A stretch of DNA of 64,000 bases, from NCBI RefSeq assembly GCF_030013595.1, contig NZ_CP122768.1; one strand, given 5' to 3'. A program made the position numbers. The DNA is from Escherichia coli. Lineage in GTDB: Bacteria > Pseudomonadota > Gammaproteobacteria > Enterobacterales > Enterobacteriaceae. Numbering within the stretch: the stretch's first letter is position 1; each line of letters opens with the position of its first letter. Shown here in pieces: positions 52,601 through 55,600 of the stretch.

Positions 52601-55600
52601 GCCATCAGCGTGTTGTAATCTGCCTGCAGAATTTTCCCGTCCTTCAGTGCCTTGTTCAGTTCTTCCTGACGGGCGGTATATTTCTCCAGCGGCGTCTGCA
52701 GCCGTTCGTAAGCTTTCTGCGCCTCTTCGGTATATTTCAGCCGTGACGCTTCAGTATCGCTCTGCTGCTGCGCATTTTTGTCCTGTTGACTCTGCTGTTC
52801 AGCCTTCTTTCTCGCGGCTTCAAGCGCAAGACGGGCCTTTTCACGATCATCCCAGTAACGCGCCCGCGCTTCATCGTTAACAAAATAATCATCCTTGCGC
52901 AGACTCCAGATGTCGTCCGCTTTCTTAAACGCAGCCTCTGCCTTAATCAGCATCTCCTGAGCGGTATCAGGACGACCAATATCCAGCACCGCATCCCACA
53001 TGGATTTGAATGCCCGCGCTGTCCTGTCTGCCCAGGTCTCCAGCGTACCCATGTTCTCTTTCAGGCGGCGGGTCTGGTCATCAAACCCTTTCGTCGCGGC
53101 CTCGTTCGCCGCCTGCAATGCCCCGGCTTCATCGCCGGAACGCTGCAACTGAGCAACATACGCAATCTGCTCCGCCGTCACGTTATGGAACTGGCGTGCC
53201 ATCGCTGTCAGCCCTGACGTCGGGTCTGTGGTCAGCTTCCCGAAGGCTTCAGCGACCTTGTCCACCTCCACGCCGGATGCAGAGGAGAAACGCGCCACAC
53301 TCTGGCTGATGGATGCAATCTGAGCCTCACCGCTTACTCCCGCCTTAACCAGTGCGCTGAGTGACTCGCTGGTCTGGTTAAACGTCAGCCCTGCCGCCTG
53401 CCCGGCTCTGGACAGGACCAGCATACGATCTGCCGTCAGTCCCGCCTGATTGCCGGAAAGGACCAGCGTTTTGTTGAAATCGGACAAGGTTGAGTTGCCC
53501 TGATACCAGGCATACGCCAGCGCACCGGTCGCCACCGCCAGCGAGGTGGCCCCCACCATCGGCAGGGTGATCGCACCGGCAAGCCCCCTGAACATGGGGA
53601 TCATACCGCCGAAGGAGTCCTTAACCTGACCACCCTGTTGCAGCAGGATCAGCCACGGACTTTGCCCGCCTGCAAGCTGCGTGGCCACGTCGGTGAACTG
53701 TGCAGGCAGCATACGCATGGCGGCTTTATACTGCCCGACGGAAATCCCCGCTTTCTGTGCAGCCAGCGCCTGTCGGCTCAGCGACTGTTCAACGACTGCC
53801 GCTGTTTTTTTCGCATCACTTTCCGTACCGGAAAAATGACGCCTGACTCTGGCCATCTGCTCGTCAAATCTGGCCGCATCCAGACTCAAATCAACGACCA
53901 GATCGCCTACCGGTTCAGCCATACCGGACTCCTCCTGCGATCCCTTCTGATACTGTCATCAGCATTACGTCATCCTCCGTCATGTCCGCCACATCCGGGG
54001 AAGTAGGGATAACTTCATTCCCGTCCGGGCCAAAGCGGACACCTCCGGCAAGCCCTGCCGCTTTCTGCATCAGCACATCATCTTCAGGCTCTTCGTCAGC
54101 CTCGCGCCGGTTCAGCAGACTGAAATCCAGCGGATGCATATCCGGATCGCTGAAAAACAGGCTGAGCACGGTGTACGTCAGCCCGGAAAAGTGCATATCC
54201 AGCAGAACATCATGAAAATAATGGGTACTGTAAAAGCGGTGCCAGTCGGCATACTCCGTGGATGACATCCCGGCAAGCATGGCACGCCAGTCGGGTCGCC
54301 CCATCTCACGCGCCAGTTTCAGGGCAAAACTCAGCTCACCGTCGAACACTTTCCCGCAGAAACAGGCTCTGCAGGCCCGGCGTCATCTGCCTGTTCAGGT
54401 GCATCATTCACAACAAACTCAGACATACCGGACAGACGCATTACCACATTTTCAGCCTGAGCAATTGCCTCTGTGGGCCAGGTGGTAAGCACTTCCTGCT
54501 CAATTTGTTTAACGGCTTCATTCATGGATGGCATCTTTGTCTTCTGCGGATGGTTATGCCACAGGGACATCGCCACCAGAAAAGCACCGGTTCTGACGAG
54601 ATCTTCCACGCTCACCTGTCGATTGACACTGGAGCCCGCCTGTTCTGCCTGTCGTTTCAGCAGGGCGAGATGCTCAATACGCTGCAGGGCTGACAGTTCA
54701 GAAAGCGTGACGCTCACACCGTTATATTCAAATGATTCGGTTTTCAGGAACATCGCTGACTCTCCGGATTAACTGGCGGTGACGGTGATTTCTGCAACCG
54801 CAGCAAGTTCACCATTACCGGATACAACCGGAATGTTGACCTTGCCTGCAGCAACGCCGTTCACGGTGATGGTCATACCGCTGACCGACACGGTGGCTTT
54901 TGTTTTATCCGCAGACACCGCACGAAAGCTCTTGTCGGTTACGCCCTCCGGCTGGAAGGCCACGGTCAGCGTGGTGCTCTGCCCTTTCACCACCGAGGTG
55001 CTGGCAGGCGTCACGGTCATGCCGGTTGCCGCTGTTACCGTGCTGCGATCTTCTGCCATCGACGGACGTCCCACATTGGTGACTTTCACCGTGCGGGTGA
55101 TCACTTCCTTCGCCGTCACCGCCTTACCGATACTGCTGACCCAGCCACGGAACACATCGACCGTGCCGTTCGGGAAGCGGATTTTATAGGCACGGGTATC
55201 GCCTTCATTAAACCACGCCAGCAGCGCCTGCTGCCCCTGCTCTCCGGGCATCCACGCCAGCGTGAAGCTGGTATCTCCGGCAGATTTCTGCCCCTGCCCG
55301 GTCGCAGTCCAGTCTGCATCTTCATCATCGAGATAGCTGTCGTCATAGGACTCAGCGGTCAGTTCGCCGGGCGTCAGGTCTTTAACTTTTGCCAGACGCG
55401 ACCAGTCAACGTCTGAAAGCGGATTCGCATAAGGGTCACCGCTCCCCTTATAAACCCACAGGGTGGTCCCGGCACCTTTCACCGGCATTACAGGATTTGG
55501 TACAGGCATAGCGTCCTCACATTTCATAGGTAATGACATAAGTCAGATCGGCTGAACTCCACAGGCCCGCATCATCGTCGCGCCGGTAGTCATAGCCGCT

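What the first reader, a model, noticed from the sequence alone, without database searches (positions are those of the whole stretch)
54331..54360. Conserved programmed -1 frameshift site joining G and T
The heptamer GGGAAAG (minus strand, 54349..54355) lies just before the G stop codon at 54331..54333, with the T frame open in -1 from 54349 down to 53915. This is the architecture of the lambda G/GT tail assembly chaperone, where a minority of ribosomes slip to make the GT fusion. T therefore has no independent start and should be annotated as a frameshift product.
Basis: partly seen in the sequence, partly recalled or inferred. Interest (0 to 1): 0.3.

Follow-up and report, generated by a model that had tools for sequence, protein, structure and literature searches.

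The report
Lambda-type G/GT tail chaperone frameshift site

Summary
On the minus strand, GGGAAAG (54355..54349) is phased G_GGA_AAG in gene G (54753..54331). It lies 15 nt before the G stop (54333..54331) and leads into a -1 frame that stays open to 53915. A -1 slip gives a 279-aa G-T fusion. The DNA is 95% identical to phage lambda V-G-T-H, with the heptamer and its 3' flank identical. G and T match the NCBIfam equivalog models for lambda G and T. No T-frame start codon has a usable Shine-Dalgarno, and the "GTG start" used in database annotation is not conserved in relatives. All 89 assessable related loci keep an in-phase slippery site (GGGAAAG, GGAAAAG or AAAAAAG) although the 5' flank diverges freely. 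Of 14 in-phase XXXYYYZ heptamers in the prophage late genes examined, only this one opens a long -1 ORF. This is the lambda G/GT programmed -1 frameshift (Levin 1993; Xu 2004), so it is already known. One small addition: a 69-nt structure (54340..54272) starts 8 nt 3' of the heptamer and folds alike in divergent relatives. The evidence for it is only suggestive, and it was already flagged in silico by Sharma et al. 2014. One correction: the T frame opens at 54382, not 54349.

The parts
54331..54753 (-). Gene G (tail assembly chaperone gpG, 140 aa), the zero-frame product
   Evidence: ORF and translation; NCBIfam TIGR01674 phage_lambda_G equivalog, E 2.4e-60; Pfam PF06894; SD GGAGAG upstream, -6.6 kcal/mol
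54349..54355 (-). Slippery heptamer G_GGA_AAG, the -1 shift site (Gly-Lys in both frames)
   Evidence: Sequence and phase. It is identical to the lambda site. The AAAG core is invariant in 18 diverse representatives. An in-phase site is kept in 89 of 89 relatives.
54331..54333 (-). G stop codon TGA, 15 nt after the heptamer; bypassed by shifted ribosomes
   Evidence: The 15-nt distance is conserved in 84 of the 85 loci tallied.
54383..54385 (-). Upstream TGA in the T frame; it sets the 5' limit of the stretch where both frames are open (54382..54334)
53915..54349 (-). T segment (-1 frame), decoded only as the C-terminal 144 residues of the 279-aa G-T fusion: join(54753..54349, 54349..53915)
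   Evidence: Fusion translation; Pfam PF06223 at fusion residues 164-239; NCBIfam TIGR01715 phage_lam_T; no SD before any T-frame start; GTG not conserved
54272..54340 (-). Candidate 3' stimulatory RNA structure. An 8-nt spacer is followed by a 7-bp closing stem (54340..54334 with 54278..54272) that encloses a long hairpin (54315..54300 with 54295..54280). Inferred, not shown.
   Evidence: RNAalifold consensus over 14 diverse sequences. 98% of cells are paired, but 14 of 21 pairs never vary and only 2 pairs show double changes. MFE -32.4 kcal/mol, z -4.5; five relatives give z -2.4 to -3.4 with the same architecture. In an unbiased scan it is about the 4th local peak of 344 windows. Sharma 2014 Table S4 flags the gpG cluster 'Structure = Y'.
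54769..55509 (-). Gene V (major tail tube protein), the upstream neighbour
   Evidence: Pfam PF16461 Phage_TTP_12 plus Big_2. The lambda V length (741 nt) places the start at 55509, where the SD is better than at the mechanical ORF start 55539.
51361..53922 (-). Gene H (tape measure protein, 853 aa), the downstream neighbour. Its ATG overlaps the end of T by 8 nt and has a strong SD (AGGAGG).
   Evidence: Pfam PF06791 plus PF09718; SD -10.3 kcal/mol; sequence

Best explanation
This is the programmed -1 ribosomal frameshift site of the G/GT tail assembly chaperone genes of a lambda-like prophage. Most ribosomes translating G read G GGA AAG in frame, terminate five codons later at TGA (54333..54331) and release the 140-aa gpG. 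A minority slip back one base, about 4% in lambda. The slip occurs while tRNA-Gly and tRNA-Lys occupy GGA and AAG, and the tRNAs re-pair on GGG and AAA. These ribosomes continue with GTG TTC GAC in the T frame and make a 279-aa gpGT (...PVSAGK-VFDGELSF...). According to the lambda literature, the G part of both proteins coats the tape measure protein H, and the T part of the rare gpGT recruits the tube protein V. The fixed slip frequency therefore sets the G:GT ratio (about 30:1) that tail assembly needs, and neither protein ends up in the virion. What is shown here: the sequence anatomy, the homology, the lack of an independent T start, and the conservation. What is inferred by homology to lambda: the slippage itself, its rate, and the chaperone roles. 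A folded RNA element 8 nt downstream (54340..54272) may raise the slip rate from the bare-motif level. This step is only suggestive.
For: The heptamer is in X_XXY_YYZ phase, 15 nt before the G stop, with the -1 frame open for 144 further codons. It is the only in-phase heptamer in the overlap, and the only one of 14 in the 18 late genes examined that has a long -1 ORF. DNA identity to lambda V-G-T-H is 95.2%, with the same heptamer and the same 3' flank. G and T match NCBIfam equivalogs TIGR01674 and TIGR01715, and Pfam finds both domains on the fusion. The genes lie between tube gene V and tape measure gene H. T-frame starts lack an SD, and the GTG is not conserved. In-phase sites are found in all assessable relatives: 78 GGGAAAG, 4 GGAAAAG and 3 AAAAAAG, plus 4 more GGGAAAG. 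The 5' flank is highly variable (about 1.5 bits per column) next to an invariant AAAG. N15 and LLS records annotate the homologous heptamer as the -1 slip site. Literature: lambda slippery sequence GGGAAAG for G/GT at about 4% (PMC3296357); 30:1 ratio and chaperone roles (PMC5009743); G_GGA_AAG highly shift-prone in E. coli; 0.28%, 3.8% and 43% with no, IS911 and IS3 stimulators, and the gpG cluster marked [true] (PMC4066793 supplement).
Against: Nothing in the sequence argues against it. The limits are these. No expression data exist for this particular prophage, which might be defective or silent. The slip rate here is extrapolated from lambda. G differs from lambda gpG at several residues (for example FEYNGVS versus FEHNGVT, and QAGSSVNRQVSVEDLV versus QAESDSNRKFTVEDAI), but not at or after the slip site. 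The role of the downstream structure is unproven. 14 of its 21 pairs never vary. Synonymous-site conservation is raised over the whole T domain rather than over the structure alone. The segment is only one of about four structure peaks in 1.1 kb. My recollection, unverified here, is that Levin et al. 1993 did not find a strict requirement for a downstream structure.
Confidence: 0.95

Rival explanations
1. T is an independent gene whose translation starts at the GTG at 54349..54347, as GenBank, RefSeq and PGAP annotate it, and no frameshift is involved.
For: An ORF finder reports a 144-aa GTG-start ORF at 53915..54349. Lambda J02459 and NC_001416, HK630 and PGAP E. coli genomes annotate T this way.
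Against: There is no usable Shine-Dalgarno. The only pairing is GGGA, abutting the GTG, at -4.3 kcal/mol, against -5.9 to -10.8 for real starts in the operon. The GTG is replaced by the non-start codons GCC, GTC, GCA, GCG or GTA in relatives, which still keep the T frame open back to the heptamer. The next T-frame ATGs have even weaker SD pairing. Published lambda work reports gpG and gpGT.
Confidence: 0.02
2. The fusion is made by transcriptional slippage: RNA polymerase adds or omits a base in the A run, rather than the ribosome slipping.
For: Some relatives carry a longer A run at the site (AAAAAAG, six A's). Transcriptional slippage is known in other bacterial genes (PMC4256274).
Against: The run here is only three A's (GGGAAAG), far shorter than runs known to support RNA polymerase slippage (established knowledge). 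What is conserved is the tandem-slip phase X_XXY_YYZ with a terminal A_AAG, not the run length. In lambda the frequency responds to the tRNA-Lys U34 modification state, which is a ribosomal signature (PMC3296357).
Confidence: 0.01
3. The site is a relic. The prophage is defective or silent, so the heptamer and overlap are inherited sequence with no current function in this host.
For: No expression data are available. Only the late-gene half of the prophage is in the window (41.7-64 kb), so its integrity cannot be judged. Lambda-like G-T segments occur in 3,707 of 5,426 complete E. coli genomes, and many of these are likely cryptic prophages.
Against: All late ORFs from the tail fibre genes to the head genes are intact and collinear with lambda. 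G, the heptamer, T and H are undisrupted. This rival concerns activity of the prophage, not what the site is.
Confidence: 0.02

Closest known systems
Bacteriophage lambda G / G-T programmed -1 frameshift (Levin, Hendrix & Casjens 1993; Xu, Hendrix & Duda 2004, 2013, 2014)
   Same: The heptamer G_GGA_AAG is identical, as are the 15 nt to the TGA stop, the 3' flank, the fusion junction ...PVSAGK/VFDGELSF..., the product lengths (140 and 279 aa) and the V-G-T-H gene order. DNA identity is 95.2% over 1.1 kb.
   Different: G differs by scattered substitutions, and the T frame opens 12 nt later than in lambda because of an upstream TGA (overlap 52 nt versus 64 nt). There is no difference in any element of the signal.
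N15 / phi80-like (mEp213, LLS, Klebsiella Kp4865-4) and VT1-Sakai/Stx-phage G-T frameshift sites
   Same: The genes are homologous (45-58% GT identity). The shift site is at the homologous position with the same A_AAG A-site part and the same predicted downstream fold.
   Different: The P-site part differs: G_GAA_AAG in the N15 group and A_AAA_AAG in the VT1-Sakai group. In Kp4865-4 the G stop lies 3 nt after the heptamer instead of 15.
dnaX and IS911/IS3 -1 frameshift cassettes of E. coli
   Same: All use tandem slippage on an X_XXA_AAG heptamer decoded by tRNA-Lys(mnm5s2UUU). A 3' structure after a 5-9-nt spacer is the usual stimulator (PMC4066793, PMC5009743).
   Different: Those cassettes have experimentally proven stimulators (an upstream SD and/or a hairpin or pseudoknot) and much higher efficiencies. 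Here no upstream SD-like element is reported (Sharma Table S4, SD = N), and the 3' structure is only predicted.

Membership tests
Lambda-type G/GT tail assembly chaperone with programmed -1 frameshift | Two overlapping ORFs located between the major tail (tube) gene and the tape measure gene | tested here: met
   V (PF16461) at 54769..55509, G at 54331..54753, T at 53915..54349, H (PF06791/PF09718) at 51361..53922, all on the minus strand
Lambda-type G/GT tail assembly chaperone with programmed -1 frameshift | The downstream ORF is in the -1 frame relative to the upstream ORF and is open across the upstream ORF's stop | tested here: met
   The T frame is open from 54382 to 53918, and the G stop is at 54333..54331
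Lambda-type G/GT tail assembly chaperone with programmed -1 frameshift | A slippery heptamer X_XXY_YYZ, in phase with the upstream ORF, inside the overlap | tested here: met
   G_GGA_AAG at 54355..54349 is the only in-phase heptamer in G. It is experimentally shift-prone in E. coli (PMC4066793 Table S3).
Lambda-type G/GT tail assembly chaperone with programmed -1 frameshift | The downstream ORF lacks its own ribosome binding site and conserved start | tested here: met
   SD pairing is -1.9 to -4.3 kcal/mol, against -5.9 to -10.8 for real starts. The GTG is not conserved among relatives.
Lambda-type G/GT tail assembly chaperone with programmed -1 frameshift | The shift site is conserved among homologues despite flanking divergence | tested here: met
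   89 of 89 assessable loci keep an in-phase site. The AAAG core is invariant, and 5' flank entropy is about 1.5 bits per column.
Lambda-type G/GT tail assembly chaperone with programmed -1 frameshift | Sequence homology of both parts to lambda gpG and gpT | tested here: met
   TIGR01674 (202 bits, cutoff 74) and TIGR01715 (189 bits, cutoff 77), both equivalog models; PF06894 and PF06223
Lambda-type G/GT tail assembly chaperone with programmed -1 frameshift | The fusion protein is actually made at a few percent, and both G and GT are required for tail assembly | not testable with these tools
   This is shown for lambda in the literature. It is extrapolated here from identical signal sequence.
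Canonical bipartite -1 PRF cassette (slippery site plus 3' stimulatory structure) | A conserved RNA structure 5-9 nt downstream of the heptamer that stimulates slippage | tested here: inconclusive
   A structure with an 8-nt spacer is predicted in all 14 diverse sequences, and z is -4.5 to -2.4. But only 2 of 21 pairs covary, the synonymous-site signal is not specific to it, and it is only about the 4th peak in a regional scan. Sharma 2014 lists Structure = Y and RVSS = N for the gpG cluster.

The most novel reading that the evidence does not exclude
The 69-nt branched structure at 54340..54272 may be a real 3' stimulator. It has a 7-bp closing stem that starts 8 nt after the heptamer and encloses a long hairpin, and it is kept from lambda to N15/phi80-like and Stx phages. 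On this reading it raises slippage from the bare-motif level (0.28% for G_GGA_AAG without a stimulator) to the roughly 4% seen in lambda, and so helps set the G:GT ratio. This would mean the lambda G-T signal is bipartite, not 'heptamer only'.
Probability: 0.35. Interest if true: 0.25.

Novelty: already known. Interest (0 to 1): 0.07.

Why it matters
Biologically it matters because the slip frequency fixes the gpG:gpGT ratio needed to build a tail of correct length. But this has been established for lambda since 1993 and shown to be conserved across long-tailed phages since 2004. The practical value here is for annotation. T at 53915..54349 should be annotated as join(54753..54349, 54349..53915) with ribosomal slippage, not as a GTG-initiated gene. 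That error persists in the lambda RefSeq and GenBank records and in PGAP-annotated E. coli genomes. The only open scientific point is whether the conserved downstream RNA fold contributes to the slip rate.

Tried and rejected
1. Folding arbitrary fragments around the site gave no significant stability: 99 nt downstream gave z -1.55, and 111 nt spanning the site gave z +0.47. Only the segment cut at the predicted stem ends is significant, so I added an unbiased sliding scan, which demoted it to one of about four local peaks.

2. The covariation test was weak. 14 of 21 pairs never vary, and there are two double-change pairs. One of them (16-84, G-C to A-U) is carried by four sequences of the N15/phi80-like group, so it may reflect few independent events.

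3. The synonymous-site conservation test showed a rise around the site, but the level stays equally high across the whole T domain. It cannot separate RNA constraint from recent shared ancestry or mosaicism.

4. Rfam has no family at the site. Only sub-threshold chance hits appear in 53800-54900.

5. My first motif filter (DWRAMLAG) dropped six loci. I re-examined them and found they have the site or are truncated contigs, so they are not counter-examples.

6. I tried to read Levin 1993, Xu 2004, Xu 2013 and Christie 2002 for deletion data on downstream sequences. None is held. What I say about Levin's downstream analysis is therefore memory only and is flagged as such.

7. I rejected an independent T start, transcriptional slippage and a chance heptamer as explanations (see rivals).

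Full report
**Observation.** I read the minus strand of 53800..54900 and computed the frames. The heptamer GGGAAAG lies at 54355..54349. The G ORF starts at 54753, and the first G of the heptamer is at offset 398 (398 mod 3 = 2). The codons therefore read GC|G GGA AAG, the classical X_XXY_YYZ phasing.

- G continues TGT TCG ACG GTG AGC TGA and stops at 54333..54331, 15 nt after the heptamer.
- The -1 frame is open from 54382 (after a TGA at 54385..54383) down to the stop at 53917..53915.
- A -1 slip on the heptamer gives a 279-aa protein with the junction ...PVSAGK|VFDGELSF....
The latter is only the first start-like codon an ORF finder picks.

**Is it more than chance?** The heptamer string alone is common, with 13 copies on both strands of the window. 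I scored 18 late genes of the same prophage (6,546 in-phase positions) and found 14 strict in-phase X_XXY_YYZ heptamers. The other 13 are followed by -1 ORFs of 1-25 codons and lie 180-3,111 nt from their gene's stop. This one is followed by 144 codons and lies 15 nt from the stop.

**What it is.**
- The 1.1-kb segment is 95.2% identical to lambda J02459 9564-10664, which covers V, G, T and H.
- The fused product carries Pfam Phage_TAC_2 (residues 1-125) and Phage_tail_T (164-239).
- The neighbours are a lambda-type tail tube protein and a tape measure protein.
- G and T hit the NCBIfam equivalog models phage_lambda_G and phage_lam_T far above their cutoffs.
- The whole minus-strand block from 41.7 kb to the end of the window is a lambda-collinear late operon: tail fibre assembly protein, tail fibre, Lom, J... 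H, T, G, V, U, Z, FII, FI, E.

**Does T have its own start?** I paired the 3' end of 16S rRNA against the 20 nt upstream of each candidate start.
- Real starts in the operon (V, G, H, M, L, U, Z) give -5.9 to -10.8 kcal/mol.
- The five T-frame ATG/GTG codons give -1.9 to -4.3 kcal/mol.
- The best of these is the GGGA of the heptamer itself, which abuts the GTG with no spacer.
- In relatives the 'GTG' is GCC, GTC, GCA, GCG or GTA. No start is conserved, yet the T frame always stays open back to the heptamer.

**Conservation.**
- Eight annotated phage relatives at 72-77% DNA identity all have an in-phase site at the homologous position: G_GGA_AAG (lambda, PhiR12_1, an Stx2a phage), G_GAA_AAG (N15, LLS, mEp213, Klebsiella Kp4865-4) and A_AAA_AAG (VT1-Sakai).
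- The N15 and LLS records explicitly annotate it as the -1 slip site, and LLS uses a joined CDS.
- A scan of viral contigs gave 80 more loci. Of all loci where both frames could be assessed, 85 of 85 had the site (78 GGGAAAG, 4 GGAAAAG, 3 AAAAAAG), at 15 nt from the stop in 84 and 3 nt in one.
- Of the six loci my motif filter skipped, four have the in-phase site and an intact T frame, one has the heptamer but the contig ends just after it, and one ends before the site. A seventh locus (L052) lacks G altogether.
- In 18 diverse representatives the AAAG core has zero entropy, while the 5' flank averages about 1.5 bits per column.

**Mechanism.** The literature held here states the following.
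- Lambda gpGT is made by a -1 slip on GGGAAAG about 4% of the time.
- tRNA-Lys(mnm5s2UUU) decodes both AAG and AAA, and its thiolation state tunes the rate and hence phage yield (PMC3296357; PMC7618472).
- The G:GT ratio of about 30:1 is critical.
- G (in both proteins) binds the tape measure protein and T binds the tube protein. Neither is in the virion (PMC5009743).
- G_GGA_AAG is among the most shift-prone heptamers in E. coli.

Because the signal here is base-for-base the lambda signal, I infer the same mechanism. The slip itself is not shown for this prophage.

**A possible 3' stimulator.** RNAalifold on 14 diverse sequences predicts a conserved fold that starts 8 nt after the heptamer. 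It has a 7-bp closing stem (window 54340..54334 with 54278..54272) around a long hairpin (54315..54300 with 54295..54280).

Evidence in its favour:
- 98% of cells are paired, and one pair switches G-C to A-U in the N15 group.
- The exact segment gives MFE -32.4 kcal/mol and z -4.5 (0 of 200 shuffles). Five divergent relatives fold alike at z -2.4 to -3.4.
- The bare motif gives only 0.28% in a reporter, against 3.8% with the IS911 stimulator (PMC4066793 Table S3). That is of the order of lambda's native 4%.

Evidence that weakens it:
- 14 of 21 pairs never vary, because the region encodes the most conserved part of T.
- Synonymous-codon identity is raised around the site (0.81-0.87 versus about 0.65 in G) but stays at 0.75-0.85 through the whole T domain.
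- An unbiased 69-nt scan ranks the segment only about 4th among local peaks in 1.1 kb.
- Arbitrary longer fragments are not significant.

Sharma et al. 2014 reached the same position for their gpG cluster (74 genes): Structure = Y, SD = N, no significant synonymous-site suppression. So even this point is not new. It is untested rather than unknown.

**Comparison and verdict.** All testable defining features of the lambda G/GT frameshift family are met. Only the biochemical ones cannot be tested here. The finding is correct and already known. Its practical consequence concerns annotation: lambda GenBank and RefSeq, HK630 and PGAP genomes still list T as a standalone GTG CDS, and lambda-like G-T segments occur in 3,707 of 5,426 complete E. 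coli genomes. Interest is low.

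Noticed in passing
L001/L003 (lambda J02459, NC_001416), L002 (HK630), L011 (E. coli EC416, PGAP): T is still annotated as a standalone 144-aa GTG-start CDS in the lambda reference records and by PGAP, rather than as a ribosomal-slippage join. HK630 names it 'tail assembly protein GT' but gives only the T coordinates. Phage LLS (L005) does it correctly with a joined CDS.
   Followed up: yes
L008 (Klebsiella phage Kp4865-4) about 915-930: The G stop has moved to a TAG only 3 nt after the heptamer (GGAAAAG CCC TAG), instead of the otherwise fixed 15 nt. The slip site and T frame are intact, so the 15-nt tail of gpG is dispensable.
   Followed up: partly
L057 (IMGVR_UViG_2874956758_000002), T frame after index 1898: T carries an in-frame 15-residue deletion between two DW dipeptides (GRPDW[RAMLAGMSSTEYADW]HRFY). 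This removes the most conserved T motif and part of the predicted 3' RNA structure. It could be a natural test of both.
   Followed up: no
window 37823..41700: The tail-fibre end of the prophage (tail fibre assembly gene ending at 41694) lies about 450 bp from the 3' end of a tRNA-Ser(UGA) gene (41158..41245, + strand). On the other side of the tRNA are NiFe hydrogenase small and large subunit genes (39613..40758 and 37823..39616, minus strand). This looks like a serT-hya-type chromosomal location, so the prophage boundary should be near 41.25-41.7 kb.
   Followed up: partly
window 41737..41935 (-): Rfam IS009 (RF02111) matches full-length at 223 bits, inside the tail fibre assembly gene (41694..42278).
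   Followed up: no
window 21916..22338 (-) and 11156..11234 (+): In the host part of the window there is a full-length cspA thermoregulator match (157 bits) and a naRNA4/CssrE match (79 bits).
   Followed up: no
window 54769..55539 (-): The mechanical V ORF is 256 aa from an ATG at 55539 with a poor SD (-2.2 kcal/mol). The lambda-equivalent start is the ATG at 55509 (246 aa), with GAGGA upstream (-5.9 kcal/mol).
   Followed up: partly
window 53916..53839, 54861..54784, 54207..54136 (-): Three other 69-nt windows on the sense strand fold as well as or better than the post-heptamer segment (z -4.2 to -4.9). They lie at the T/H junction and start of H, the 3' end of V just before G, and mid-T. 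N15 annotates a putative terminator stem-loop between its V and G homologues (L004 490-507).
   Followed up: no
window 53800..54900: No complete E. coli genome in the collection matches this segment at more than 99.2%, although 3,707 of 5,426 genomes carry a lambda-like G-T segment (median 2 copies, up to 7 per genome).
   Followed up: no
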